A stretch of 64,000 bases of DNA from Desulfatiglandales bacterium (lineage in GTDB: Bacteria > Desulfobacterota > DSM-4660 > Desulfatiglandales > Desulfatiglandaceae): assembly GCA_963662465.1 (NCBI GenBank), contig OY759599.1, positions 416,001 through 480,000 of the forward strand, read 5' to 3'. The notes below the pieces were generated by a model. The model made no database searches. It was not told the origin of the DNA and saw nothing but the letters and a program-made list of their open reading frames with translations. The translations under genes and the position numbers were made by a program. Of the stretch, positions 23,722 through 46,239 are shown in pieces; within the stretch, counting starts at the first letter, position 1, and every line of letters starts with the position of its first letter.

Positions 23722-24620
23722 GTTAACCGCCTGCGCAATACGCATTTGAAGCCTTTGGTTCATCGCGGATTAACGTGAAATCGCGCTTTGAGATTGTTTC
23801 GGTTCGGGCTGTAGGTGCGACTTTAGTCGCACAGGGTAGGCTTAATGTGCGACTAAAGTCGTACCTACAATCCGCTCAGAAGCCAAATCTCACGCGAATC
23901 CACAATGAGCCAAGCCTTTTCACGTTACTCTTAACGACATCCCAATTAATGAGTTGCCAGTTTGGAGCTTGTTGTGGAAGTGCACCCGTCACGAAGACCG
24001 TCATTTGCTATTCTCCCATCAGAAGGTTCTTCAAATTATCTCACGCATGAGCACCCGCCAAAATTCAGCTCCCTTTCGGGCCGGAGATAACTCCGTATCC
24101 CACCCATTACAGGAGGGCATTGGCTTGGTAAGGCGTCTTGCACCCGCAACACCAACGGCCTGCCTCACGGTTGGCTTGCCACAAAACTTTATGGCGATGT
24201 TACGAGCTTACCACGTTCCGCAATAAATACTGTTAACTGACTTAGGTCCACCCCCTATACCGGCGGCACAACATCCGCGCCGGGCGTACGTTCGAGACTC
24301 CCGACCTGGCCGCACACCGTTTGGTCCAAGCCTATCGGCCTCTTTGGCTTGTTGCTGTTTACGATACTGCAGGTGTTTGAATATACTGACCATATCAGTC
24401 AATCCCAGCCCTAATCCGGATGAGGTTTCCAGAGGAACAGTCCACTCACGCTTTCTGTCCTGACCTTCCAACTTCAAAGGTCCTCGGTACATTGTCGGGA
24501 GGGCTTCACACCCCGTCATCAGCGCAACGGCAGCATGCCTCCCTAGGATGTCGGTGGCGGAACACCGAGTTTCCACGATTCTTCTGTGAAAACATATATT
24601 TAAAGCAACTTCGTGTCGCA
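23722..24620 (-). mobile_element. Group II intron 1 (IIB/chloroplast-like), 3'-truncated
   Basis: 5' end (G)TGCGACACGAAG matches intron 4; RT N-terminus MTVFVTGALPQQAPNWQLINWDVVKSNVKRLQMRIAQAV from 24004 is restored when the MITE is removed; no domain V/VI. Confidence 0.8.
23757..23911. mobile_element. 155-bp MITE with internal GTAG-type REP doublet
   Basis: Imperfect TIRs GGTTCATCGCGGATT / AATCCACAATGAGCC; 8-bp TSD AAGCCTTT (23749-56, 23912-19); inner palindrome 23810-23869. Confidence 0.85.
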
Positions 24621-25432
24621 GTCGGGTAGCCGGGGGCTGTTACCAGCCCCAAGCCCCAAAGAACCGTACTTGAGACTTTCACCTCATACGGCTCAAGCCT
24701 CTCAAAGGCCGACCCTGATGGGGCCACCCGCTGATTATAAAAAAAAAGTAACCAACTTTGCGATACTAACCGGCTGCCACTTACCGCAGTGGCGGGTGCA
24801 CCAGTCGACCAAAAGGCCACCGTCATTTGCTTTCCCGCCTTGGGTGGTTCGGCCGGGCTTCTCGCAAAGAGAGACCCGTCGGACGTCTGCTCGCTTTCGC
24901 GCCGGGCAAAGTTTGAGCCCGTATCCGTTTCATTACAAAACGGCATTCGCTTCTTCCGACATCCTACACCCGCATACCCATCGGATACCCTTGCGGGCAA
25001 CCTACCCAAAAGGGAGGTATACGGGGTTATCATGTTCCGCGTAAGTACCCGAGCAGGTTAGGTTCCGCCCCTACGCCGGTGGCACGACATCAGCGACGGA
25101 GGAGTTAGCAGCCTCCGTTCCTGGCCACGTACCTTTTGGTCCAAGCCTTTCAGCATCTTAGGCTTTTTCTCGTGACGACGCTGCAGCGATTCACATGTGT
25201 TAACCGTACTGCTCAATTCTAGCTCCCTTACCGCATGATGCTTGCAGAGTTGAGGTCCCCTCACGGTTCCCTCTTCCGGAAAATTCCGCGGGCTTCATTG
25301 TCCCGAGAGCTTCACACCCCTGGATTACTCCGGACGCATGTCCCGGTAGAATACCTGTTGCAGAAAACAGGGTTTTGTTATATGGTTTATATCAATATCT
25401 AAAACAGCTACTTACGCGACATCACGTCGCAC
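24621..25432 (-). mobile_element. Group II intron 2, ORF-less (812 nt), IIB-like
   Basis: 5' GTGCGACG; domain V GAGCCGTATGAGGTGAAAGTCTCAAGTACGGTTC (24694-24661); domain VI ending CTACCCGAC; only a residual MTVAFWSTGA start at 24826. Confidence 0.88.
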
Positions 25433-25519
25433 CCGAACGACAAGCTCACCAGCGCCTCCTCCGACCCCCGCTGGAACCGCGGAAAAGTATCAGGCGTCTG
25501 GTGCAGCGTTTGGTTATTT
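25433..25519 (-). other. attC site A
   Basis: R'' AAATAAC, 5-bp spacer, L'' GCTGCACC ... L' GGTGAGC, 5-bp spacer, R' GTTCGG followed by intron 2. Confidence 0.88.
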
Positions 25520-27328: not shown

Positions 27329-29451
27329 GTGTGCCGGGCACGGCACGTGTTCTTAAGGGTGCGCGCAATGTACCATGATTCCGATATTTTACGCAAGTCC
27401 CAGACCCAGCCAGGTAGTGGCGAAGGGTGTAGCGGTATCACAACCGGGTACCCGGTAACGGGCCTGGAGAGGCAGTGGCCTTGCCGCGGCAGGGCACCGC
27501 AAACGCACGGGGCGACGAACAGAAATCGAGTGAGGCGGGTCTGGTGGGACGAGTTCGCAACACAGAACAAAGTCCTCTAACTACTATAGGCCAGGCACGT
27601 TGTCGGCGCTCGTGTGCGGAAAGACACGTGTTTACCCCGGGAGGCCCGTTGCGTCTCGTAGGGAACTGCAACTGAAATCTACCGGAATATAAGGGAAAAC
27701 CGGTAAAACAAAACCCTGGCGTCAGGAACATTTCGAGTCATAGCCCTGACGAGCCCGGCCTATTGGTCGGGAAACACAAACAAATGGACTCGACAGATTG
27801 CGGAAACTACGAGTGAGCGAACCGTAAGGGGAGCCCACCGCGTAACGGGAGTCAGCAGAGGGCATATTAAGCCGGAGAAACGAGCCCTGAATAAAGGGAG
27901 GCCTCACTCCGGTGAAGGCCCGAACGGTCCCACCTGCCGAATGGCAGGGGTAAATGAAAGGGTTAATAAGGAGACGTTTCTAATGAATCCATTGCAGCAG
28001 TTGAAACAGCTTGAGCTGAACTTGGAATTCCCTGACACATTTGTGTCGCGGAATACAGGTTCTGAAGAATTCATTGCGTCACGGCTATCAGAAAGCCCGA
28101 CAGGTCAAATTCGGTTCATGGAGTCAATCCTTGAGCGGAACAACATGAGATGCGCTGTCAAGCGTGTAATCAAGAACAAGGGCGCCCCTGGGGTGGACGG
28201 AATGACCGTCCGCAAAATAGAAAAGTATCTGGAATGCCACAGGGACAAAATTGAGCAGGCATTGCTTGAGGGAAACTTCAAGCCTATGCCGGTACGGCGG
28301 AAAGAGATCAATAAGCCGGGAGGCGGAGTTCGCCTTTTGGGCATTCCGACCGTGTTGGATCGCGTGATTCAGCAGGCCATAGCTCAAGTCTTAACCGCAA
28401 TCTGGGATCATACCTTCTCGGAAACGAGCTACGGGTTCCGGCCAAACCGTTCACAACATGACGCTATGCGTCAATACTGTGAGTATGTAAGGCAGGGATA
28501 CCGGTATGCTTTAGATATTGATCTATCCAAATTTTTTGACCGAGTTAACCATGATAGACTTATGGCTCGCTTGGCCACCCGGATCAATGACAAGCGTGTA
28601 TTGAAACTCATTCGTAGTTTCCTTACTGCGGGCGTCATGATTGGCGGTCTTGAGCAGGCAACACAAGAGGGTACCCCGCAAGGCCCACTTTCTCCACTGC
28701 TCAGTAATATAGTCCTTGACGAACTTGATAAAGAGCTTGAAAAGCGTGGCCTTCGCTTTGTCCGTTACGCTGACGACTGTGTCATATTTGTCAGAAGTAA
28801 AACGGCGGCGAATCGAGTAATGCAAAGCATTAGCCGCTTTATCGTAAAGAAACTGCGACTAAAGGTGAACCGGGACAGGAAAGCGAAGACTCCGAAAGCG
28901 CCATTCGTCGTCCATGGGAAAGCAATGTAGGATTAGGCGTGACAAACTCACGCAAGAAACCGAAAATTCGCATTCACTGGAAAACAATTAAGCGGTTCAA
29001 AGAGCGGGTTCGTGAAATCACGGCCCGTCGCTGTGGGCGCAGTCTTAAACAGGTAATTGGCGAACTAAAGGTGTTCATGAACGGATGGTGGAACTATTAT
29101 GGTATTACCGAATCGTTCAACCGGCTCCGCCCTTTAGACCATTGGGTCAGACGACGCCTTCGGGCGCTTGTTTGGAAACATTGGAAGAACCGCCGAACCC
29201 GTGTAGAGAACTCCTGAAACGGGGTGTCCACCGCAACTTCGCGGTTACAACCGGGTGCGCTAGGAAAGGCCCCTGGAGGATGAGCAAAGTCAAATGGGTT
29301 CAAATTGCTTTACCGGATGCCTACTTTAAATCTCTCGGTCTTGTATTTCCCTGGATTTGATTCCTGCCTTGATCAGCCGAATCGCCGTATACGGACCCGT
29401 ATGTACGGTGGTGTGGGAGGGGGGAGCTGTGAGGCTCCTCCCTATCCCTAT
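27329..29451 (+). mobile_element. Group II intron 3, class C (IIC), antisense to the cassette array
   Basis: 5' GTGTGCCGGGCACGGCAC; short domain V with CGC triad (29381-29412); 3' end CCTATCCCTAT. Confidence 0.85.
27941..29360 (+). pseudogene. ltrA: Group II intron RT/maturase, frameshifted into three pieces
   Basis: NKGAPGVDG, SYGFRP and YADD present; QGGP reduced to QGP; small insertion near 28875 and frameshift near 29210. Confidence 0.85.
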
Positions 29452-32697: not shown

Positions 32698-34963
32698 GCC
32701 GGGTAGCCGGGGGGTGTTACCACCCCCGAGCCCCTTCAGAACCACGCATGAGACTTTCACCTCACACGGCTCAAGCGTCTCTGAAGGCAGCCCTGGTGGA
32801 GCGGCCCGGCTGTTCGTCTCCTATGTGGCCATCATCGCCCGATATTCCCGGGCTGACAGGGCCGGTAAAAGCTTGCTTTCCCTGTTATGCCGGCGGCGCC
32901 AAAAATAAGCGGCGTAGTCCGGATCATAGGGGTTGGCAGCGGCTTTGATCTTCACGTGCCTTCGGATTCCAATTGTGCTGATTCTCAGGAGTTTGTAAAG
33001 CTTTTTACCTCCTGTTATGGTCTTCGCCCATACGGCACAGACGTTCTTTCCGGCGGCTGACCAGTAATTTTGGATAAGCCATTGCACGGATTTGTTCGGG
33101 TGCCGTCGGCGCAGCATGCATCGAATCTGGTCAAAGACGTACGTGTCGATACGACTGAAGGCTACCGATGCCACCACGTGGCGGTGGTAATTGGCCCAGC
33201 CTCGAAGCACCGAATTGAGCTTCTTGATCAGGGCAGGCATCGGGGCGGTGACGTATTTGCGAATCAGTTCCCTTACCTTTTGCATGAGGGTGTGAACTCC
33301 CGCATCGGATGGCGTGATGTGCAGTTTTCGGCCAAGCTTGCGAAAGGTTTGCCCGAGGAACGTGAATCCGTGTTTAATGTGCGTGATCAGGGTCTTTTCA
33401 ATTGAAAGCTCCAGGCCGCGCACGGCAAGGAAAGCTTCGACCACCGGCTGAATGACTTCTTTCAGGATCTTTTTGGATTTCCCGGTAATAATGAAGTCAT
33501 CCGCGTAGCGGACAAAATTGATACGGCGCCTTCGGGGGACTGCACTGTGGACGGCTTCCTCCAGCCCGTCAAGCACCATATTCGAAATGGTGGGACTGAT
33601 AATCCCACCTTGCGGAACTCCCTTGCGTGTCGGGTAGGTGACGCCGTTTTCCACATAACCCGACTTCAACCATTTATGAAGAACGACTTTGTCCACGGGA
33701 ATGTTTTGAAGTATCCAATCGAAAGAGATATTGTCAAAACACCCCTTGATGTCCCCCTCCAAAATCCATGGTGCCGAGTTGGGCTTTGACAGGGCATTAA
33801 AGGCGCAGGCCACGGCATCGGCACATGACCGGCCTTCCCGAAAACCATAGGAATTCCGATCCGCTGTTGTTTCGGCTACCGGCGCCAGGGCCAGTTTGTA
33901 CAGGGCCTGCTGCGCTCTGTCATACATGATGGGAATCGACAGGGGCCTCAATTTGCCGTTCTTCTTTTCGATATAAATCCTCCTCAATGGTTGAGGGTGA
34001 TAGCCACGTCGCCGCAGGCTGATAACAGCCCGCCATTTGGCTCGGGCGCCTCGCCACAGAACGCCGTTAATGCCGGGGGTCTTTTTCCCCTTATTGGAGG
34101 TCACCCGTTTTACAGCCAGTAGCTTGGCGTGGAACGAGTGGGTTAACAGATATTGTAAAGCACTTACTTTGTTCCACCTGTTTTCCTGAACAGCCTTTGC
34201 GATACGCACCTGCAGCCTTCTGACTTCCCGTCGGGCGTGTTCAAAATCAATTGAACTCCACTTGTCCGCGTCGTCTCCGAGTGCACCAGCCTGAACGGCC
34301 GTCATTCGCCCGTTTCACTGGCTGCCTTCTCTTCTTCAAAGGTTCTCCAGATGCTCTCGCAACGAGATACCTGTTGGACGTCTGCACGCTCATTCACCGG
34401 AGCGGAAGCCTGCCGGTTTTGGCGTTAAGCCATGTTTCATGCTCTATCTTTCGGCTTTCCCGAAAGCATTCGCTTCTTCCAACCTCTCTTTCCCGTCGCT
34501 CCATCGGCGTGCCTTACGGTTTGCGTGCCTGGAATTGCTCCAGGCGGAGGACGGGGTTACTACGTTCCGCATAGTTGATCCAATGGATGACTTAGGTGCG
34601 CCCTCTACGCCGGTGGTACGACGGTTCCGTGCAGGCAGTTGAGAGACCTGCAACCTGACCACATCCGCTGACACTGGGCAGCGGCATAAGACCTGTTAAT
34701 CCTCGTAGGCCTTTCGCTTGTGATCGACGCTGTAGACATTCAATTAATTTCACCATATCATCCGACCCTGGTCCTTAACCGGGGAGGATTCCCGGAGGGG
34801 TTCGCCTGTCACCATTTGAACCCGATTCGGTACGTTGTCCGCGGGGCTTCGCACCCCATCATCAGCGCGATGGTAGCACGCCCGCGTAGGGTCCGGCAGG
34901 AACATGCCGGGTACTACATGTAACTACATGAATACACTCAAACTATGCGACTTCGTGTCGCAC
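32698..34963 (-). mobile_element. Group II intron 4 (IIB/chloroplast-like), full length
   Basis: 5' GTGCGACACGAAG; domain V 32772-32739 with AGC triad; domain VI ending CTACCCGGC; removal restores R' GTTGTGC. Confidence 0.9.
32821..34305 (-). CDS. ltrA: Group II intron RT/maturase, no HNH endonuclease domain
   Basis: N-terminal W..I.F....V.RLQ.RIAKA, SYGFR, PQGGIISP, YADD, maturase LNSVLRGWANY. Confidence 0.95.
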   Translation of the reverse strand: MTAVQAGALGDDADKWSSIDFEHARREVRRLQVRIAKAVQENRWNKVSALQYLLTHSFHAKLLAVKRVTSNKGKKTPGINGVLWRGARAKWRAVISLRRRGYHPQPLRRIYIEKKNGKLRPLSIPIMYDRAQQALYKLALAPVAETTADRNSYGFREGRSCADAVACAFNALSKPNSAPWILEGDIKGCFDNISFDWILQNIPVDKVVLHKWLKSGYVENGVTYPTRKGVPQGGIISPTISNMVLDGLEEAVHSAVPRRRRINFVRYADDFIITGKSKKILKEVIQPVVEAFLAVRGLELSIEKTLITHIKHGFTFLGQTFRKLGRKLHITPSDAGVHTLMQKVRELIRKYVTAPMPALIKKLNSVLRGWANYHRHVVASVAFSRIDTYVFDQIRCMLRRRHPNKSVQWLIQNYWSAAGKNVCAVWAKTITGGKKLYKLLRISTIGIRRHVKIKAAANPYDPDYAAYFWRRRHNRESKLLPALSAREYRAMMAT

Positions 34964-37175: not shown

Positions 37176-37202
37176 AGAATCAATTATAAATTGCGGCAAT
37201 TC
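37176..37202. repeat. 27-bp direct repeat, copy 1
   Basis: AGAATCAATTATAAATTGCGGCAATTC, identical at 41895..41921. Confidence 0.9.
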
Positions 37203-37260: not shown

Positions 37261-37398
37261 CTCGTTCCCACGCTCTGCGTGGGAACGCACTTTGGACGCT
37301 CTGCGTCCATCAATCATTATGGGCAATAATAAAAGTCCTTTGCAAGGGCAAGGACGCAGAGCGTCAGGGACAATGTTCCCACGCAGAGCGTAGGAACG
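37261..37398. repeat. REP-like palindrome doublet CTCGTTCCCACGCTCTGCGTGGGAACG
   Basis: Inverted pair of hairpins with inner GGACGCTCTGCGTCC / GGACGCAGAGCGTC. Confidence 0.85.
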
Positions 37399-39301
37399 GT
37401 GCGCCTGTGAAGGCGCTTTATCAGTGCGGTGAAAGTCCGTACCGGAGTATGCCATAGCTCCGTAGCCGAAGGTAACTGCGTCGCCGCGAGGCGGGGTGGA
37501 GAGCAACCGGAGGCGAAAAGTCAGTCCGTAGGATGACGAACCCGATTCGGTGTCATGTGGTGGCGAGCCTACCGTTCCATGGTGAAGCCTGAAACTCACA
37601 GACCACGCTGTAATGGCGGTTAAAGCGATGGTTTGACGGCATGGTATGTTTGGGGTCGGAATGACTGGAAGGTAAAGCGAGATAAGCAGGGAGACCTGTC
37701 TCTTGGGGTGACAGGAGGCAGGAGTCAGAGTCCTCATAGTACCGTAGCGACAGAACGGTCCTGCTAACAAGGCTTACGGCGTGAGACCAGTACCCGCCGC
37801 CTGCGTCGGATACCGGGTTGTGAAAAGCGCGGATAGCAAAACCGTGCCGAGGGAAGGAGGATAGGAAGATAGATACGGAAAGGTCATATAGATGCAGCTA
37901 AATCAAGCAGTCTCGGCAGTGTTGGAAACAACTAAACGCGAGGCAGAAACCCGATGGGATTGGGTGGAAGCATCGGTGTGGACGGAACGTATGTTGGCAG
38001 CCCTGGGTAACGGGGTGAAAGGTGGTAAATGGTACAGTTTGATGGATAAGGTGTTCGCCTTGTCGACGCTGGAAGCGGCTTGGGGACGTGTCAAAGCCAA
38101 TAAAGGAGCGGCAGGGATAGACCGTATCAGCATAAAGCGCTTTAAGGAGCAGGCGGAGAAATACCTTGCCGAACTGCATGAAACCTTGAAAGCGGGAACG
38201 TACCGACCGGAAGCGGTAAAACGGGTATACATTCCGAAAAGCGACGGCAAACAACGCCCGCTGGGGATACCCACGGTCAAAGACCGGGTAGTGCAGGCAG
38301 CGGTTAAAATGGTTATGGAGCCCATATTCGAGCATGAATTTCTGCCGATGAGTTACGGCTTCAGGCCGCAAAGAGGTTGCAAGGACGCGTTGCGAGAAGT
38401 AGACGCGCTTATTAAGGAAGGCTACACCTTCATACTGGACGCCGACCTGAAAAGTTACTTTGATACGATTCCGCACGATAAGCTGATGCAACAAGTCGAA
38501 ATGCGCATCAGCGACGGCAAATTGCTCAATCTGATTCAAATGTTCCTGAAACAGGACGTGATGGACGGCTTGGAAAGATGGACACCGACGGGTGGTTCGC
38601 CACAAGGGGCGGTAGTCAGCCCCTTGCTTGCGAATATTTACCTGCATCCTCTTGACAGCCTGATCGCGGAATCAGGTATGCGGATGGTGCGTTACGCGGA
38701 CGACTTTGTTATCCTCAGCCGCAGTCAAACGGAAGCGGAGAATGCTTTGCAAAAGGTACGGGAGTGGGTACAGGCTAATGACCTGAGCTTACACCCGGAC
38801 AAGACGCATCTTGGCGACTGTCGACAAAAGGGTCAGGGATTTGAATTCCTGGGATACCGGTTTGAGGCAGGAAAGCGCTGGATACGCAGTAAAAGCCGTA
38901 AAGCCCTTCGTGATAAAATCCGGGAAGAGACCCGGCGCAAACGTAGCGGAAGTATGGAAAGCATCATTGATGATCTGAACCCCATGCTCGAAGGCTGGTT
39001 TGGTTACTTCAAACACGCCTACCGCACTGAGTTTGCGGCGGTGGATAAGTTTGTCCGCCGACGCTTACGCGCCGTATTATTGCGTCGTAACAAACGCAAG
39101 GGCTGGGGCAAAAGCCTTGAAGTCCACCGCCGCTGGCCGAATGCCTACTTCGCGAAAATCGGGCTTTTCACTATGCATGAGGCCCGGTTAGCAGCGTGCC
39201 GATCCCGATGAGGAAACTATCGACCGGAGAGCCGTGTGCGGGAGAACCGCATGCACGGTTCGGAGGGAGGGGAGAGCCAAGAGGCTCTTTCCTACCCCTA
39301 T
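37399..39301 (+). mobile_element. Group II intron 5 (1903 nt)
   Basis: 5' GTGCGCC; domain V GAGCCGTGTGCGGGAGAACCGCATGCACGGTTC (39229-39261); 3' CCCCTAT; boundaries confirmed by second copy. Confidence 0.95.
37892..39211 (+). CDS. ltrA: Group II intron RT/maturase, no endonuclease domain
   Basis: NKGAAGID, RPLGIP, SYGFRP, PQGAVVSPLL, YADD, maturase LNPMLEGWFGYF. Confidence 0.95.
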   Translation: MQLNQAVSAVLETTKREAETRWDWVEASVWTERMLAALGNGVKGGKWYSLMDKVFALSTLEAAWGRVKANKGAAGIDRISIKRFKEQAEKYLAELHETLKAGTYRPEAVKRVYIPKSDGKQRPLGIPTVKDRVVQAAVKMVMEPIFEHEFLPMSYGFRPQRGCKDALREVDALIKEGYTFILDADLKSYFDTIPHDKLMQQVEMRISDGKLLNLIQMFLKQDVMDGLERWTPTGGSPQGAVVSPLLANIYLHPLDSLIAESGMRMVRYADDFVILSRSQTEAENALQKVREWVQANDLSLHPDKTHLGDCRQKGQGFEFLGYRFEAGKRWIRSKSRKALRDKIREETRRKRSGSMESIIDDLNPMLEGWFGYFKHAYRTEFAAVDKFVRRRLRAVLLRRNKRKGWGKSLEVHRRWPNAYFAKIGLFTMHEARLAACRSR

Positions 39302-39353
39302 AGCCCACAAAAAAATCAAAGTGTAAACTACAAAATGAAGGATGTCGCAATTC

Positions 39354-39857
39354 TTATTCGGCAACGTCATGCTGACAGACGCGACATTTCCGTGAACCTC
39401 TGAATAGCGGTTCGCCGCAGGAAGGGCAGTGGTATCGTTCGCATTCAGCCCGTGCCCATTCCACACTCCCTTTTTGCTCCCCATATTCAGCCACTTTGGC
39501 GCGCCATAAGGGAATTGCCCGCTTTGCAACCCTTACGCCTATGGCATATCCAAAATTTTCCACCAGCGTACATGGCCATTCATCACATTGATGGCAGGAA
39601 TAGTAACCTTTTGATTTTACGCAACTTCTTATTTTGCACTGTTGACAATATCTATAACGCTTTTTCGGAGGGTCCGGTTGCATGCATCCATAGCATTCTG
39701 TTTCTTCAGGTCTGGTTCCGTAAACGCTACCCATGACGGCCTTTAATTTTTCATTTTTGTCTCTTGTCGCAATGTAGATGCCGCACGCACCGCAATAAAG
39801 CCCGCATGGCGCCATTAAATCTCTATTTTGGATCTCTTTTTCAGTCCATCCTTTCAT
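39354..39857 (-). CDS. Cys-rich DUF3795-like protein
   Basis: APCGLYCGAC, CYGC, C.IRSC...C..C..WPC, C-terminal CPSC...CRVC. Confidence 0.75.
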   Translation of the reverse strand: MKGWTEKEIQNRDLMAPCGLYCGACGIYIATRDKNEKLKAVMGSVYGTRPEETECYGCMQPDPPKKRYRYCQQCKIRSCVKSKGYYSCHQCDEWPCTLVENFGYAIGVRVAKRAIPLWRAKVAEYGEQKGSVEWARAECERYHCPSCGEPLFRGSRKCRVCQHDVAE

Positions 39858-40101
39858 GTCGTTATCCCCCTGTATTAAAGAAGCTTGCCATATGAATACT
39901 GATGATGTCTTTCACTGCTTGTGACTGAAAAAATGGTCGGCATTCCGTTGTTCCTGATTGTTCTTTTGTATATGGGATGACGGGAAATCTTTTTTGATAT
40001 TTTTCGGTCACAATTAGCACTATGATTTGGTCTTACTGGTGGAGAAAGGGTAGCATGGCAATATCGATAAGCAGAGACATTGGAAAAAATGGTTTGGGAA
40101 G

Positions 40102-40965
40102 GTGGATCAAATGGAAACAACGGTGGAGCAACTGGTGATTGAAGCGGTGGCGGGCAGTCGTGAATCCCTTGAAGAAATCATTCGGCGTATTCAAGGAAAG
40201 GTGTATGGTCTGGCGTTGCGAATGCTGTTCCATCCGGCGGATGCCGAGGATGCAACCCAGGAAATTCTGATCAAGGTGATTACCCATCTCAAAAGTTTTC
40301 GCTTTGAAGGACCCTTCAACGCCTGGGCCATGAAAATTGCGGCCAACCACCTTCGGTCCGTTCGCAGGGGGCGCGTGGAAAAAAAAGAATTTACCATGGA
40401 AAAGGCCCAAGGAATTATCGATCGCACCGAGGCCATGGGCTGGTTCTCCGATCTTCCGGAAGCGCCTGAGCCCTTGATGGAGGTGGAGATGCGGTCCGTC
40501 TGCACCCAGGCGTTGCTTCTAGCCCTGGATCGCGATCACCGGATGGCCTTTATTTTGGGGGTGGTCATGGATGTTACGAGCAGTGAAGGGGCATTTATCC
40601 TGAGCATTAACCCCGCTGCATACCGTAAGCGTCTTTCCCGCGCGCGCCACAGGGTCACTGATTTTCTGAGCAGAAATTGCGGACTGTTCGACGGCGCCAA
40701 TCCCTGTCGCTGTACCGCCGTTTTGAAAGGACACTTGAAACGAGGTTGGATTAATCCTCAAAAGCCTCTTTTTGCTGACGAAAACAGTGGTGATCTGGAA
40801 GGAAACGAGGTATTGGGCACTTATATGAAGGAGCTGGATGAACTGGGCCGGGTCTCCGCCCTTTACAAAGCCTCTGTTTTGGGTGAAGGGTCCTCCGACT
40901 TCTCGGGGCTGGTGAAGGAGTGGGTGGAAGCAGGAGAATATCGCGTTTTTTCCAAACTTCATTGA
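40102..40965 (+). CDS. ECF sigma-70 factor with C-terminal Cys-containing extension
   Basis: DAEDATQE region 2, F.AW..KIA.N, RKRLSRAR region 4, CGL....PCRC extension. Confidence 0.88.
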   Translation: MDQMETTVEQLVIEAVAGSRESLEEIIRRIQGKVYGLALRMLFHPADAEDATQEILIKVITHLKSFRFEGPFNAWAMKIAANHLRSVRRGRVEKKEFTMEKAQGIIDRTEAMGWFSDLPEAPEPLMEVEMRSVCTQALLLALDRDHRMAFILGVVMDVTSSEGAFILSINPAAYRKRLSRARHRVTDFLSRNCGLFDGANPCRCTAVLKGHLKRGWINPQKPLFADENSGDLEGNEVLGTYMKELDELGRVSALYKASVLGEGSSDFSGLVKEWVEAGEYRVFSKLH

Positions 40966-41030
40966 GATAGGGGTGATTTTCAGGAACTTGGCGGCCTCCC
41001 GGTGAGGCCGCACGATTATCTTTTTCCGCT

Positions 41031-41828
41031 CTACACCAGTTTGAGTTCTTTCAGGCCCTTTGTCATTAGTTCCGGCGGCGCCTTCAGGGACATTCCCTTG
41101 GCGCTTTTGATCTGCATGCCGCGCATCTTGAGATTTGTCAGGGTTTCCGTCATTTTCAGGGTCATGGCCATGGGATCCAGGATGGGTGCTCCTTCCAGTT
41201 CGAAAATACCTTTAACTGGAAAGATGGGGGAAATCAGGCCGCAGCCGGCGATGATGACTTCCGCCCCGTCGGCCAGACACTCCCGGGATATTTCCATGAA
41301 ATTATCGATAATTTGATTATAATTCCCCCCCATCAGATCCCCGATCATGCTTTCAAGGGGCAGGGTCATGGACCTTACCGGCTTATGTGAAACGGCGAAA
41401 GGCGCAAATCCCAGGTTGATCAGATGTTCGGTCATGAAAGATACCCACACCGGCTCGCTGGTCACCACGGCAAACTTCCGGCCCATCAGGGCGGCCATGT
41501 GCATGGTGGCTTCAGCGGCCCCCATCACGGGGATGGACAGCAGATTATTCCCCATTCGGACGCCGCAGTCAAAATAGCAGGCCCCGGATATCCCATCAAA
41601 CCCATCCTTTTCCGCCTTCAGCATGGCCTTGACGATTTCCACCTCATTGGGGCCCCTGAACCCCTCAAAGCTCATTAACGCCGGATCCTTGAGGCCTTCC
41701 GGGACATCCCGAATTACCACTTCCGTATTCTCATCTTTGGCGAGATTATAGCTTTGCATCAACAAATCATAATAGTTGCCGAAAACCGTCTCCGGCATGG
41801 AAATCGGTAATAACGCGCAAATTTTCAT
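41031..41828 (-). CDS. Asp/Glu/hydantoin racemase-family protein
   Basis: Two catalytic Cys (ACYFD, IAGCG), IPVMGAAE, GRKFAVVT. Confidence 0.85.
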   Translation of the reverse strand: MKICALLPISMPETVFGNYYDLLMQSYNLAKDENTEVVIRDVPEGLKDPALMSFEGFRGPNEVEIVKAMLKAEKDGFDGISGACYFDCGVRMGNNLLSIPVMGAAEATMHMAALMGRKFAVVTSEPVWVSFMTEHLINLGFAPFAVSHKPVRSMTLPLESMIGDLMGGNYNQIIDNFMEISRECLADGAEVIIAGCGLISPIFPVKGIFELEGAPILDPMAMTLKMTETLTNLKMRGMQIKSAKGMSLKAPPELMTKGLKELKLV

Positions 41829-41894
41829 GTGCTGCCTCCCTTTTTCACAGGTTTTATTCCGTTATTGTTTTACAGCCTAAGCAGAAAAGACTCA

Positions 41895-41921
41895 AGAATC
41901 AATTATAAATTGCGGCAATTC
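41895..41921. repeat. 27-bp direct repeat, copy 2
   Basis: Identical to 37176..37202. Confidence 0.9.
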
Positions 41922-41953
41922 TCGTTTTGGGATTATGAGCTTTTCCCAAAAAC

Positions 41954-41978
41954 CGTTCCCACGCGGAGCGTGGGAACG
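41954..41978. repeat. Single REP-like hairpin, target of intron 6
   Basis: CGTTCCCACGCGGAGCGTGGGAACG immediately before GTGCG. Confidence 0.85.
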
Positions 41979-43881
41979 GTGCGCCTGTGAAGGCGCTTTA
42001 TCAGTGCGGTGAAAGTCCGTACCGGAGTATGCCATAGCTCCGTAGCCGAAGGTAACTGCGTCGCCGCGAGGCGGGGTGGAGAGCAACCGGAGGCGAAAAG
42101 TCAGTCCGTAGGATGACGAACCCGATTCGGTGTCATGTGGTGGCGAGCCTACCGTTCCATGGTGAAGCCTGAAACTCACAGACCACGCTGTAATGGCGGT
42201 TAAAGCGATGGTTTGACGGCATGGTATGTTTGGGGTCGGAATGACTGGAAGGTAAAGCGAGATAAGCAGGGAGACCTGTCTCTTGGGGTGACAGGAGGCA
42301 GGAGTCAGAGTCCTCATAGTACCGTAGCGACAGAACGGTCCTGCTAACAAGGCTTACGGCGTGAGACCAGTACCCGCCGCCTGCGTCGGATACCGGGTTG
42401 TGAAAAGCGCGGATAGCAAAACCGTGCCGAGGGAAGGAGGATAGGAAGATAGATACGGAAAGGTCATATAGATGCAGCTAAATCAAGCAGTCTCGGCAGT
42501 GTTGGAAACAACTAAACGCGAGGCAGAAACCCGATGGGATTGGGTGGAAGCATCGGTGTGGACGGAACGTATGTTGGCAGCCCTGGGTAACGGGGTGAAA
42601 GGTGGTAAATGGTACAGTTTGATGGATAAGGTGTTCGCCTTGTCGACGCTGGAAGCGGCTTGGGGACGTGTCAAAGCCAATAAAGGAGCGGCAGGGATAG
42701 ACCGTATCAGCATAAAGCGCTTTAAGGAGCAGGCGGAGAAATACCTTGCCGAACTGCATGAAACCTTGAAAGCGGGAACGTACCGACCGGAAGCGGTAAA
42801 ACGGGTATACATTCCGAAAAGCGACGGCAAACAACGCCCGCTGGGGATACCCACGGTCAAAGACCGGGTAGTGCAGGCAGCGGTTAAAATGGTTATGGAG
42901 CCCATATTCGAGCATGAATTTCTGCCGATGAGTTACGGCTTCAGGCCGCAAAGAGGTTGCAAGGACGCGTTGCGAGAAGTAGACGCGCTTATTAAGGAAG
43001 GCTACACCTTCATACTGGACGCCGACCTGAAAAGTTACTTTGATACGATTCCGCACGATAAGCTGATGCAACAAGTCGAAATGCGCATCAGCGACGGCAA
43101 ATTGCTCAATCTGATTCAAATGTTCCTGAAACAGGACGTGATGGACGGCTTGGAAAGATGGACACCGACGGGTGGTTCGCCACAAGGGGCGGTAGTCAGC
43201 CCCTTGCTTGCGAATATTTACCTGCATCCTCTTGACAGCCTGATCGCGGAATCAGGTATGCGGATGGTGCGTTACGCGGACGACTTTGTTATCCTCAGCC
43301 GCAGTCAAACGGAAGCGGAGAATGCTTTGCAAAAGGTACGGGAGTGGGTACAGGCTAATGACCTGAGCTTACACCCGGACAAGACGCATCTTGGCGACTG
43401 TCGACAAAAGGGTCAGGGATTTGAATTCCTGGGATACCGGTTTGAGGCAGGAAAGCGCTGGATACGCAGTAAAAGCCGTAAAGCCCTTCGTGATAAAATC
43501 CGGGAAGAGACCCGGCGCAAACGTAGCGGAAGTATGGAAAGCATCATTGATGATCTGAACCCCATGCTTGAAGGCTGGTTTGGTTACTTCAAACACGCCT
43601 ACCGCACTGAGTTTGCGGCGGTGGATAAGTTTGTCCGCCGACGCTTACGCGCCGTATTATTGCGTCGTAACAAACGCAAGGGCTGGGGCAAAAGCCTTGA
43701 AGCCCACCGCCGCTGGCCGAATGCCTACTTCGCGAAAATCGGGCTTTTCACTATGCATGAGGCCCGGTTAGCAGCGTGCCGATCCCGATGAGGAAACTAT
43801 CGACCGGAGAGCCGTGTGCGGGAGAACCGCATGCACGGTTCGGAGGGAGGGGAGAGCCAAGAGGCTCTTTCCTACCCCTAT
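41979..43881 (+). mobile_element. Group II intron 6 (1903 nt), near-identical to intron 5
   Basis: Same termini and length; two substitutions noticed by eye (one silent, one V/A). Confidence 0.95.
42472..43791 (+). CDS. ltrA: Group II intron RT/maturase
   Basis: Differs from the 37892 protein only at LEVH/LEAH. Confidence 0.95.
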   Translation: MQLNQAVSAVLETTKREAETRWDWVEASVWTERMLAALGNGVKGGKWYSLMDKVFALSTLEAAWGRVKANKGAAGIDRISIKRFKEQAEKYLAELHETLKAGTYRPEAVKRVYIPKSDGKQRPLGIPTVKDRVVQAAVKMVMEPIFEHEFLPMSYGFRPQRGCKDALREVDALIKEGYTFILDADLKSYFDTIPHDKLMQQVEMRISDGKLLNLIQMFLKQDVMDGLERWTPTGGSPQGAVVSPLLANIYLHPLDSLIAESGMRMVRYADDFVILSRSQTEAENALQKVREWVQANDLSLHPDKTHLGDCRQKGQGFEFLGYRFEAGKRWIRSKSRKALRDKIREETRRKRSGSMESIIDDLNPMLEGWFGYFKHAYRTEFAAVDKFVRRRLRAVLLRRNKRKGWGKSLEAHRRWPNAYFAKIGLFTMHEARLAACRSR

Positions 43882-43938
43882 AGGGAAACTCAGAGAGAGA
43901 AGAAAAGGATGTTAAAAGGCCTTTTTAGCAGGTTATTG

Positions 43939-46239
43939 TCAATTGTCCGGGTTATCGGTTTTTGCCTTTAAAGCCGCCAAAACTTTCTCGGGGGTCATGG
44001 GAACGTCCCGCATCCGTACGCCTACCGCATCGTAGATGGCGTTGGCGATGGCCGGGGCCTGCAGAAAGAGACCCGATTCTCCAACGCTCTTGGCGCCGAA
44101 GGGTCCCGTGGGGTCGCCCAGTTCCACCAGTATGGTTTCATGTTCGGGCATGTCAAGGATCGTGGGGATTTTGTATTTGTCAAAGCCGTCCGTCAGCATG
44201 GCGCCGTTTTCCGGGCTGATGATGGGATCCTCAAAAAGCGCGAAACCGATCCCCTGGGCTGTGCCCCCTTCCAGTTGCCCCTCCACTATCGTGGGATTGA
44301 TGGCTTTTCCAATGTCGTGAACCGTAATCCATTTAACGACCTTTACGACGCCGGTTTCCGTGTCCACCTCAATCTCGGCAAACCCCGCCTGCCACGGCGG
44401 CGCGAAATCAGTGGGTTCAACGGTGGCATGGACCACCAGTTGTTCGCAATTTTTTTCATAGTTGTAGATCAAGTCAAAAGCGATATCCTTGTAATTCACG
44501 GTTTTTTCGGGTTCCGCGGTTACAAAGATCTTTTTATCCTTCATTTCAAGATCTTCCGGGTTGACCTCGAGTTTGGCCGCGGCCCTGGCCAGAAATTTTT
44601 CCCGGGCCATGCCCGCCGCTTTTTGGACGGCAAGGCCGATGCAGTAGCAGCCTCTTGAGGCGTGGGTTCCGATATCGAAACCGGTCACATCCGTGTCCCC
44701 CAGGAGTACGTTGATGTCGTCATAATCAATGCCCAGGGCCTCCGCCGCAATTTGAGCAAGAGAGCCGGCAATCCCCTGCCCGAGGTTGCCCGGCGATACG
44801 ATCAATGAACATCCCCCGTCTTCATTGAACTTGAGGGTGGCGTTGCTGTGTTCCAGGAGCATGGGCTGGGCGCCGCTGAGCCAGCCCATGGCGGCTACGC
44901 CGACGCCCCGTTTGATGGGACCGTCCGATATCATTTTCCCCCATTTGTCTTTCCAGCCGATCTTCTCCGCCCCGACGTCCAGACACTCGTCCAGCCCGCA
45001 ACTGGAGATGGCCGTGGAAGGAAACCAACCCAGGCCGCCCACGCCCCGGTGGTATTTTTTCCGGAACAGAACGGGATCCATGCCGATTTTCGCGCATGCC
45101 TCGTCCACCAGGGTTTCCCGTACGAAACTCGATTGCATGCCGCCGAAGCCCCGCATGGCGCCGCAGGCCAGATGGTTGGTATAAATGACTTCAATTTCCT
45201 GATGCATGCTTTCAAATTCATATTCCGTGATGTTGCTTGCCAGGCTCACACCGCAACCGGAGGCCATTTTACAGACGTATGCCCCGGCATCTCCCGTGTA
45301 CCTGGCTTGAAGCGCCTTGGGTGTTCCATCCTGTTTGAGACCCAGTTTCATATGAATTTTAGCGATGTGTTCCCGGGTGATGCGGTTTGCAAAATCCTCG
45401 TTGCGGTAGAATTTGGTTTTAACGGGGGCACCCGCTTTGATGGTCAGGGCCGCGCTGATATGCTCCGCACAAAGATCCGTGCCGGCGCCGAAACCGCAAC
45501 CCGCATAGGGTTGGATGACGCGAACGGCCGATTCCGTCAGATCGAACATATAGGCCAGCATGCGCTTGGCCATATGGGGCAGTTGAATCTGGCTCCAGAC
45601 GGTGAGCCGGCCATTCCGGTAGTCGGCCACGCTGCACGCATTTTCAAGGCCTGCCTGGATCTGTTTGCTGGTGCTGTAGACCCCTTCCACCACCGCATCG
45701 GATTCGCCGAAGCCTTTTTCCGCGTCTCCGTAACAGAAAACCGGCGTGGGCGGCACCGGGACATTGCCCGGCACGTTTCCATGCACCTGTGGCGCCCCTT
45801 CCTGAACGGCAGCTTCAATATCAAACACGGCGGGAAGCACCTCGTATGCCACATCAATGGCCGCCAGCGCAGCCCTGGCCACTTCCTCGTTTACCGCCGC
45901 CACCGCTGCAACGGGTTCTCCCACATACCGGACCTCGTCCCCGAACAAAAACATGTCCTGGGGTTCCCCATCGGGCAACTGATAGGTCATGACATTGATC
46001 GTAAAGATTTTTTGGGGAACATCCTTGCCCGTGACCACGGCCTTTACGCCGGGAATGGCCTCGGCTTTGGACGCGTCAATTTTTAGAATCCGCGCATGGG
46101 CGTGGGGACTGCGCAGCACTTTTCCCACGAGCATTCCGGGGAGCGATACGGTGGTGCAGTATTCGGCCTTGCCGGTAACCTTGTCATAACTTTCCTTTAG
46201 CGGAAATCGTTTTCCGACCACTTTCAGTTCGTTCTGCAT
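43939..46239 (-). CDS. Xanthine dehydrogenase-family molybdopterin-binding subunit
   Basis: LRSPHAHA, GCGFG, AMRGFG, THASR, GQLEGG, GAKSVGE. Confidence 0.92.
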   Translation of the reverse strand: MQNELKVVGKRFPLKESYDKVTGKAEYCTTVSLPGMLVGKVLRSPHAHARILKIDASKAEAIPGVKAVVTGKDVPQKIFTINVMTYQLPDGEPQDMFLFGDEVRYVGEPVAAVAAVNEEVARAALAAIDVAYEVLPAVFDIEAAVQEGAPQVHGNVPGNVPVPPTPVFCYGDAEKGFGESDAVVEGVYSTSKQIQAGLENACSVADYRNGRLTVWSQIQLPHMAKRMLAYMFDLTESAVRVIQPYAGCGFGAGTDLCAEHISAALTIKAGAPVKTKFYRNEDFANRITREHIAKIHMKLGLKQDGTPKALQARYTGDAGAYVCKMASGCGVSLASNITEYEFESMHQEIEVIYTNHLACGAMRGFGGMQSSFVRETLVDEACAKIGMDPVLFRKKYHRGVGGLGWFPSTAISSCGLDECLDVGAEKIGWKDKWGKMISDGPIKRGVGVAAMGWLSGAQPMLLEHSNATLKFNEDGGCSLIVSPGNLGQGIAGSLAQIAAEALGIDYDDINVLLGDTDVTGFDIGTHASRGCYCIGLAVQKAAGMAREKFLARAAAKLEVNPEDLEMKDKKIFVTAEPEKTVNYKDIAFDLIYNYEKNCEQLVVHATVEPTDFAPPWQAGFAEIEVDTETGVVKVVKWITVHDIGKAINPTIVEGQLEGGTAQGIGFALFEDPIISPENGAMLTDGFDKYKIPTILDMPEHETILVELGDPTGPFGAKSVGESGLFLQAPAIANAIYDAVGVRMRDVPMTPEKVLAALKAKTDNPDN

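What the first reader, a model, noticed from the sequence alone, without database searches (positions are those of the whole stretch)
37261..43890. Group II intron that repeatedly inserts into a REP-like palindrome
Seen: two 1903-nt near-identical introns in different flanking contexts both sit at GGAACG|AG, at the 3' foot of the hairpin GTTCCCACGC-GAGCGT(A/G)GGAACG. Domain V has an AGC triad, unlike typical IIC. A perfect complement of the 5' exon (CGTTCC) occurs at 37573-37578. Known: insertion next to hairpins is typical of IIC introns at terminators and attC. Inference: a recently active lineage that uses abundant REP repeats as intergenic landing sites.
Basis: partly seen in the sequence, partly recalled or inferred. 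Interest (0 to 1): 0.72.

Follow-up and report, generated by a model that had tools for sequence, protein, structure and literature searches.

The report
REP-homing group II intron lineage
A self-splicing jumping gene has recently copied itself 13 times in this bacterium, almost always into the foot of a short repeated DNA hairpin (REP), and it belongs to a wide, unclassified intron lineage whose members have each re-tuned a five-base RNA guide to the hairpin repeats of their own host.

Summary
Observation confirmed. Both 1903-nt introns (2 differences) sit at GGAACG|AG. The genome holds 13 copies at 12 sites, 11 of them at this REP; read depth (~13x) argues against misassembly. The RT is not class C. 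It falls in a fully supported clade (57 of 80 retrieved loci) with a protein that Miura 2022 lists as 'Unclassified'. The RNA is IIE/IIF-like (AGC triad, pentaloop DV) with no EBS2 signal. Across the clade a 5-nt EBS1 and EBS3 covary with the exons, and 42 of 54 5' exons end in a hairpin: CGTC, GTAG and other REPs, and IS91-type ends. In this genome, among REP arms, occupancy needs IBS1 (11/35 vs 0/20), +1 A (0/29) and the 5' arm, and favours lagging-strand-template orientation (9/14 vs 2/21). Best reading: IIC-like hairpin-plus-short-pairing retrohoming by a non-IIC ribozyme. Mobility is untested, and other hairpins here stay empty (0/46). Terminator proximity of unclassified types is in print; I found no paper on REP targeting by this lineage. 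This scan noted similar introns on other DNA before (e.g. e1-6651134).

The parts
37263..37287 (-). Left REP of a REPIN-like doublet. Its minus-strand arm is a perfect, permissive target (GAACG|A) but faces against the fork and is empty.
37294..37308 (.). Inner palindrome (GGACGC-N3-GCGTCC type) of the doublet; a second copy lies at 37352-37365
   Evidence: sequence; 50 genomic copies with at most 1 mismatch, 14 within 60 nt of a perfect REP
37375..37398 (+). Target REP hairpin = 5' exon of copy 1; IBS1 = 37394-37398 (GAACG), which lies inside the 3' arm of the stem
37399..39301 (+). Group II intron copy 1 (1903 nt)
37451..37455 (+). alpha (loop of Ib); pairs with alpha' at about 37613-37617 in a terminal loop
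   Evidence: covarying pairs 53-219, 54-218, 56-216; alignment and fold
37573..37577 (+). EBS1 (CGUUC); the conserved C at 37572 is the likely delta base (inferred from position)
   Evidence: covariation with exon -1..-5
37649..37649 (+). EBS3 (U), pairs with +1 A of the 3' exon
   Evidence: 89% Watson-Crick across the clade; alignment
37892..39211 (+). Intron-encoded RT/maturase, 439 aa, YADD, no endonuclease domain
   Evidence: Pfam RVT_1 + GIIM only; TIGR04416 409.7 bits; model matches GsI-IIC RT, TM 0.80-0.85
39229..39261 (+). Domain V, 33 nt, AGC triad, GAGAA pentaloop
39262..39301 (+). Domain VI with candidate branch A at 39294 (inferred from position) and 3' end AT
   Evidence: sequence
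39302..39303 (+). 3' exon AG (IBS3 = A); remainder of the REP tail
   Evidence: an empty joint 37398|39302 in run X4
41954..41978 (+). Target REP hairpin = 5' exon of copy 2. On the minus strand it is followed by GTTTTT and, without the intron, lies 57 nt past the stop of the 43939-46239 ORF.
41979..43881 (+). Group II intron copy 2 (EBS1 42153-42157, EBS3 42229, ORF 42472-43791, DV 43809-43841)
43882..43883 (+). 3' exon AG of copy 2

Best explanation
An active-looking, endonuclease-less group II retroelement of an unclassified ('U-type') lineage that finds its target by DNA hairpin plus short pairing. The spliced intron RNP meets a REP hairpin on the single-stranded lagging-strand template. 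EBS1 (5 nt) invades the foot of the stem's 3' arm and EBS3 reads the next base. A 5-6 bp stem stays directly above IBS1 and replaces EBS2-IBS2 as the second recognition element. The RNA reverse-splices at GAACG|A and the RT is primed at the fork. EBS3 = U selects which strand of the palindrome is used. Relatives keep the geometry and re-tune EBS1/EBS3 to their host's repeat. Shown by sequence analysis: boundaries, copy number, EBS1/EBS3 covariation, no EBS2 signal, hairpin enrichment, occupancy rules, strand bias. Inferred: splicing, reverse splicing into ssDNA, fork priming, and protein contact with the stem.
For: (1) 11 of 12 sites are at the identical REP position; only 12 of 7832 GAAYG|A sites are used. 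(2) REP arms with at most 1 core mismatch: permissive 11/35, GAACC|A 0/20 (p=0.004), +1 not A 0/29 (p=0.0006). (3) Same 3'-arm sequence, fork-co-oriented: 8/13 with the 5' arm, 0/19 without (p=1e-4). (4) Co-oriented 9/14 vs counter-oriented 2/21 (p=0.002). (5) Clade 5' exons fold at median -8.8 kcal/mol vs -2.9 for 1450 upstream windows and -3.2 for 43 3' exons; 42/54 vs 192/1450 vs 6/43 reach -6 or lower. With IBS1 held open the stem abuts it in 39/54 and lies within 2 nt in 52/54. (6) EBS1 pairs 4.41 of 5 with its own exon vs 1.47 permuted (max 2.10 in 2000 permutations; 51 introns, 30 EBS1 variants). No EBS2: own 4.60 vs foreign 4.69 nt. (7) One intron uses different stems: in G221 five copies (98-100% over 203 nt, all EBS1 GTAGG) follow four different REP stems plus the intron's own DVI. 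(8) Relatives' targets are multicopy repeats (5-24, 17-67 and 16 exact pattern hits).
Against: Non-REP hairpins (stem of 8 bp or more) ending GAAYG|A are empty, 0/46; 29 are co-oriented, 9 of those with GAACG. So 'any hairpin' is not shown here. One site (2868022-2869931, a frameshifted copy) has no REP and only a weak stem. Six of 11 occupied REPs have a C-A mismatch in the stem, and for 5 of them the residual stem above IBS1 is not the minimum-energy fold. 12 of 54 clade exons do not reach -6 kcal/mol. Two REP sites face against the fork. With the strictest 3'-arm match the no-arm control has only 3 co-oriented sites (p=0.08). Clade members are related, so the p-values overstate. There is no RNA or mobility evidence.
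Confidence: 0.78

Rival explanations
1. REP-specific rather than hairpin-generic: the protein reads REP stem or loop bases or the +2 G, or a HUH enzyme (RAYT, IS91 transposase) exposes or nicks the site for the intron.
For: 0/46 non-REP hairpins used. All 11 REP sites have +2 G. Several clade targets are known or likely HUH substrates: GTAG REPs, and a hairpin beside an integrase + IS91-family pair.
Against: One intron uses four different stems in G221. Both strands of CGTC REPs are used by different members. Of 30 Y1_Tnp matches in this genome only one has a REP within about 1 kb. CGTC repeats are reported to lack a dedicated transposase (PMC3733652, passages).
Confidence: 0.13
2. Ordinary sequence homing (EBS1 + EBS2 + protein) to a roughly 12-nt site that happens to be the REP 3' arm; the hairpin is incidental.
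For: All 12 sites, including the non-REP one, share CRTR-x-GAAYG|A, and the intron has a CAUG near position 156 that could pair with it.
Against: No intron column covaries with exon -6..-16 (best excess 0.23 vs 0.53-0.61 for EBS1), and the EBS2 duplex test is null. The same 3'-arm sequence without the 5' arm is 0/19. Hairpins recur across unrelated target sequences.
Confidence: 0.05
3. Loose insertion followed by selection: only copies in harmless intergenic repeats survive.
For: A crude ORF scan finds no ORF of 90 aa or more spanning 9 of 12 sites. Genic non-REP hairpins would be purged.
Against: Selection does not predict one exact phosphodiester bond, the -1 G and +1 A rules among equally intergenic REPs, or the fork bias. 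It may contribute to the empty non-REP hairpins.
Confidence: 0.03
4. Segmental duplication, co-transposition of a REPIN-plus-intron unit, or misassembly.
For: Two sites (2291118 and 6533869) share 182 nt of REPIN flank at 96.7%. One tandem pair exists.
Against: Identity stops at the intron ends and the REP variants differ between sites. The intron unitig depth is 400.7 vs 26-34 for the flanks, and unitigs cross both junctions of copy 2 (run X1). An empty joint for site 1 appears in another study's run (X4).
Confidence: 0.01

Closest known systems
Class C / IIC group II introns (GsI-IIC, E. rectale IIC; terminator and attC types)
   Same: No En domain, no EBS2, short IBS1 + IBS3 with an upstream DNA stem. 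The best PDB matches of the protein by sequence and by fold are IIC RTs.
   Different: Separate RT clade. AGC triad in 45 of 46 members, where IIC has CGC (recalled). Larger IIB-like domain I with an alpha' arm. 5-nt IBS1 overlapping the stem's own 3' arm, leaving 5-6 bp, where IIC has a 9-12 bp stem, a spacer and a 4-nt IBS1 (PMC10190682, part 2 of 5). Targets are REP-type hairpins with no U-tract on the used strand.
'Unclassified' U1/U2 IEP types of Miura et al. 2022 (PMC8919778)
   Same: The 62%-identical IEP on plasmid pBN3 is labelled 'Unclassified' in their Table_3 and nests inside this clade. They report g6, U1 and U2 introns often right after predicted terminators, including I-shaped ones (section 9).
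   Different: In the sections and passages I read they give no RNA structure, EBS mapping or REP link ('palindrom' occurs 0 times). The table does not separate U1, U2 and U3, and the supplementary figures could not be read.
Class E/F (IIE/IIF) ribozymes, e.g. Ge.ur.I1, Pe.th.I2, Cl.be.I2 (PMC3753933)
   Same: alpha' in a terminal loop and a 5-nt DV loop (passages; here); small size; En-minus protein.
   Different: They have an apparent EBS2-IBS2; this clade shows none. The RT is not with the 3 F references or the E reference. No g2, g4 or g5 reference was in the tree.
REP-targeting insertion sequences (IS1397, ISKpn1, IS621, ISPsy8, ISPpu9/10; PMC1525189)
   Same: Same ecological strategy: REPs as multi-copy intergenic landing sites. 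That paper's table also lists 2 of 9 P. putida group II intron copies at REPs.
   Different: These are DNA transposases or recombinases; here it is an RNA-guided retroelement with covarying guides.

Membership tests
Group II intron retroelement | GUGYG...AY ends, DV/DVI, RT-maturase ORF | tested here: met
Group II intron retroelement | Self-splicing and retromobility | not testable with these tools
   needs an experiment
Class C / IIC | RT in the class C clade | tested here: not met
   Clade 100/99 and C references 100/97 are separate groups; both lie under a weak node (81/91). Only 3 labelled C references.
Class C / IIC | CGC triad (recalled) | tested here: not met
   AGC in 45 of 46, DV 33 nt in 46 of 46
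Class C / IIC | No EBS2-IBS2 | tested here: met
Class C / IIC | Insertion downstream of a DNA stem-loop | tested here: met
   the geometry differs
Class C / IIC | Target is a terminator U-tract or attC | tested here: not met
   No terminator call at either window site; reconstructed sites continue AG.. on the used strand
Class E/F (IIE/IIF) | alpha' in terminal loop; 5-nt DV loop | tested here: met
   against PMC3753933 passages
Class E/F (IIE/IIF) | Apparent EBS2-IBS2 duplex | tested here: not met
Class F (g2-g5) | RT groups with class F | tested here: inconclusive
   Not with 3 F references (one g3, two labelled F[g2-g5]); no named g2, g4 or g5 reference was obtained
Miura 'Unclassified' (U1-U3) | Same clade as an IEP so labelled | tested here: met
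   a second 'Unclassified' reference (L090) falls elsewhere, so the label covers several clades
Miura 'Unclassified' (U1-U3) | Which of U1, U2 or U3 | not testable with these tools
   supplementary figure file too large to read
REP/REPIN (target) | Short multicopy extragenic imperfect palindrome, often in inverted doublets | tested here: met
   42 perfect cores, 5 doublets; present in 10 of 10 congeners
REP/REPIN (target) | Cognate RAYT flanked by these REPs | tested here: not met
   30 Y1_Tnp matches, none flanked on both sides; nearest REP about 1 kb from one

The most novel reading that the evidence does not exclude
This clade is an undescribed class of group II introns with its own target mode. 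A IIE/IIF-type ribozyme without EBS2 opens the foot of REP-type and other HUH-element hairpins, and it has been naturally retargeted through at least 30 EBS1 variants across many phyla. A Bacillota clade with an AGC triad that follows true terminators would then suggest that hairpin targeting is shared by several En-minus lineages and may be older than the IIC ribozyme.
Probability: 0.5. Interest if true: 0.75.

Novelty: new variant of a known kind. Interest (0 to 1): 0.62.

Why it matters
Reviews treat stem-loop targeting as the property of class C alone (PMC4424553 and PMC12584367, passages). A second ribozyme architecture using it, with a different geometry, bears on whether hairpin recognition is ancestral or convergent. 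The covarying EBS1/IBS1 series is a natural retargeting panel. The genome supplies matched occupied and empty targets that turn directly into assay substrates. A 'hairpin + 6 nt' retroelement could serve as a multi-copy neutral-site integrator in REP-rich bacteria.

Tried and rejected
EBS2 candidate (CAUG near intron nt 156): fits this genome's sites but fails covariation and the duplex test. A 6-nt EBS1: the sixth position does not covary. RAYT search: no cognate gene found. Orthologous empty site in congener G010: the region is rearranged and has no perfect REP core, so uninformative. The 'empty' joints in run X1 are explained by paralogous half-REP sites in the same genome and were not counted as an empty allele. 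No RNA holder listed. The first GTAG pattern was badly spaced and gave control-level counts; the second found matches in 2 of 5 genomes. The REP flag was faulty and the count hid mismatched copies; one search replaces both. The motif-based EBS3 count (37/45) mis-picked at least the two window copies; the alignment-based figure is used. The first tree lost the E reference and L081; one search includes them. Two truncated 95-97% relatives in G134 sit at the same REP family on the opposite strand, but have lost EBS1/EBS3 and cannot test the polarity rule. The AlphaFold model confirms an En-less RT but was not used to map stem-binding residues; the sequence alignment to the IIC maturase stops at residue 399. 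Nine paper searches found no description of REP targeting by this lineage; the library lacks most subscription papers (Mohr 2018 not held; Robart 2007 and Simon 2008 not read).
Full report
1. Observation. The window holds two 1903-nt group II introns at 37399-39301 and 41979-43881 (+), differing at two bases, each between GGAACG and AG, with identity ending at the intron boundaries. Each follows the 3' foot of a 24-25-nt palindrome. Rfam finds DV/DVI at 39227-39301 and 43807-43881. The 439-aa ORF has only RVT_1 and GIIM domains, scores 409.7 bits on TIGR04416, and its model (pLDDT 89) matches GsI-IIC RT over 420 columns, so there is no endonuclease domain.

2. Genome-wide. The single-contig genome has 13 full copies at 12 sites; one site holds a head-to-tail pair. 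Twelve copies differ at 9 positions in total. The thirteenth has an 11-nt insertion and a 4-nt deletion that break the ORF, and it is the only one not at a REP. Eleven sites are at the same bond of the same REP family. In short-read contigs of run X1, which may be the source sample and so is not independent, the intron unitig has depth 400.7 against 26-34 for the flanks, and unitigs cross both junctions of copy 2. A contig of run X4 (another organism label and study) appears to join 37398 to 39302 directly, an empty allele (the joint and the 543-nt downstream match have the same depth, and letters between are 'not known'). The REP pattern occurs in 10 of 10 congeners (1-38 copies) while the intron was not found in them; several are incomplete assemblies. 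The repeat therefore looks older than the invasion.

3. Occupancy rules (intron copies removed in silico). Among 59 REP cores with at most one mismatch (118 arms): arms ending GAAYG|A are occupied 11/35, GAACC|A 0/20, correct IBS1 with another +1 base 0/29, others 0/34. The result is the same at 0, 2 and 3 mismatches. With origin and terminus taken from cumulative GC skew (about 5.77 and 1.79 Mb), permissive arms co-oriented with the fork are occupied 9/14 against 2/21 (p=0.002). The window shows this in miniature: the perfect left REP at 37263-37287 faces the other way and is empty, while the imperfect right REP is used. Sites with the same 3'-arm sequence but no 5' arm are 0/19 against 8/13 (co-oriented only). 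Against a purely generic reading, 46 non-REP hairpins ending GAAYG|A are all empty, and only 12 of 7832 GAAYG|A sites are used.

4. Relatives. A scan of GTDB genomes returned the best 80 of 94 loci. I assigned 57 to the query's clade from identity, RNA-end similarity and the tree; 23 belong to other clades. Forty-nine of the 57 had a usable 5' end; with 3 plasmid loci and the 2 window copies this gives 54 exons, some from the same genome. Their last 34 nt fold far more strongly than upstream or 3'-exon controls, and with IBS1 held open a stem, mostly 5-6 bp, abuts it. The hairpins are unrelated in sequence. They include CGTC-type repeats used on either strand, GTAG-type repeats (family names by comparison with PMC3733652, passages), an Acidobacteria repeat, and a hairpin beside an integrase + IS91-family gene pair on Burkholderiaceae plasmids. 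Pattern counts show the tested targets are multicopy: 5 of 5 genomes, 4 of 4 source genomes plus a negative fifth, and 2 of 5 (of which one was the source of the pattern). Six further members from the same taxonomic class also have palindromic 5' flanks by eye. In G221 one intron follows four different stems; in G219 six copies follow six different stems, though EBS1 is covered for only two. In that follow-up set 20 of 25 exons reach -6 kcal/mol (one false 5' hit dropped; it overlaps the set of 54).

5. RNA anatomy. In 43 non-redundant introns, exon -1..-5 covary with intron nt 175-179, +1 with nt 251, and nothing covaries with -6..-16. A permutation test confirms EBS1 and a duplex test finds no EBS2. 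The consensus fold of 15 members has 84 pairs, 50 with compensatory change, with the EBS1 arm and an alpha' arm at the end of Id. DV is 33 nt with a 5-nt loop in all 46 examined, AGC in 45. The alpha' terminal loop and pentaloop are the IIE/IIF marks named in PMC3753933 (passages), but those introns show an apparent EBS2.

6. Class. In a 42-row ML tree with references labelled from PMC8919778 Table_3 and PMC3552965 Table S2, 19 clade rows form one group (100/99), apart from C (3 references), F (3), and single D, E, g1, B, ML and CL1A references; deep nodes are unresolved. The pBN3 protein, 'Unclassified' in Miura 2022, is inside the clade. No g2, g4, g5, g6 or A reference was included, so the exact name stays open.

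7. Mechanism. Most likely the En-minus RNP reverse-splices into a hairpin on the lagging-strand template, using EBS1 + EBS3 and the residual stem, and is primed at the fork, as reported for En-minus introns generally (PMC4424553 and PMC8643678, passages). Stem recognition by the thumb and DNA-binding region is by analogy with the IIC structure (PMC10190682, part 2 of 5) and is not shown here. The same stem would hide IBS1 in the precursor RNA and may damp splicing (inference). Tandem pairs occur here, on pBN3 and in G221; in each, EBS3 is U or C and could accept the intron's own first G, and in G221 the DVI end also mimics the target (inference).

8. Literature. PMC8919778 (sections 7 and 9, passages, Table_3 searches and one part; supplementary figures unreadable) reports g6, U1 and U2 introns near predicted terminators, which partly anticipates this finding. 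PMC4424553 (passages) says homing is the specificity of all lineages but class C. PMC7923331 (passages) reports one IIB intron after attC and no known role for upstream structure in IIB. PMC1525189 (passages) lists IS elements, and 2 of 9 P. putida intron copies, at REPs. Also seen: PMC3552965 (parts 1-3 of 4, Table S2), PMC4244168 and PMC7306698 (passages), PMC12584367 (abstract, introduction). Nine searches found no account of REP targeting by this lineage. Earlier notes of this scan describe similar cases on other genomes; none shared sequence words with this intron. They came after my reading was formed and are not counted as support.

9. Verdict. Real, not IIC by membership, IIC-like by mode of targeting: a new variant of a known kind, backed by comparative evidence and directly testable. 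Interest 0.62.

Noticed in passing
window 24400-25432 (-), 27359-29451 (+), 32698-34963 (-), repeats at 25436, 30171, 31859, 34967: Three or four other group II introns or remnants among attC-like repeats and small cassette-like genes (PIN-like ORFs, a restriction-endonuclease-like ORF, by eye). The 32821-34305 RT groups with CL1A. The minus-strand ones start right after the repeat.
   Followed up: partly
L054, L056, L057, L060, L061, L064, L067 (Bacillota): A separate RT clade (about 42-54% identity to the query; AGC triad where DV was found) sits directly after hairpin + T-run terminators in 7 of 8 loci with a visible 5' end: a second non-class-C hairpin-targeting group.
   Followed up: partly
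L081-L085 (Burkholderiaceae plasmids): Clade members insert at one hairpin next to an integrase + IS91-family gene pair, at 3 sites on one plasmid, one of them as a tandem pair.
   Followed up: partly
L142:1428 onward: ORF-less member of the clade (DV about 690 nt from the 5' end) behind a hairpin.
   Followed up: no
L138:166 and L144 (G134): Two truncated remnants, 95-97% identical to this intron's 5' end, at the same REP family but on the opposite strand.
   Followed up: partly
G000:C1 688845, 1340789, 6956924: Half-REP sites followed by the same downstream repeat as site 1, all empty; the downstream repeat itself is unexplained.
   Followed up: partly
G000, many places (e.g. intron-less coordinate 394463): A hairpin repeated about 18 times ends in GAATG|A yet is never occupied; possibly an IS end (guess).
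   Followed up: no
window 41954-43939: Copy 2 lies antisense between the stop of the minus-strand 43939-46239 ORF and a REP that has a T-run on that strand, so it may separate the operon from its terminator or stabilising hairpin (inference).
   Followed up: no
window 37176-37202 and 41895-41921: An identical 27-nt AT-rich direct repeat lies upstream of both REP sites at different distances; unexplained.
   Followed up: no
G000:C1 2868022-2869931: The broken copy appears to sit just inside the start of an ORF behind an AGGAGG motif, a non-REP off-target site.
   Followed up: partly
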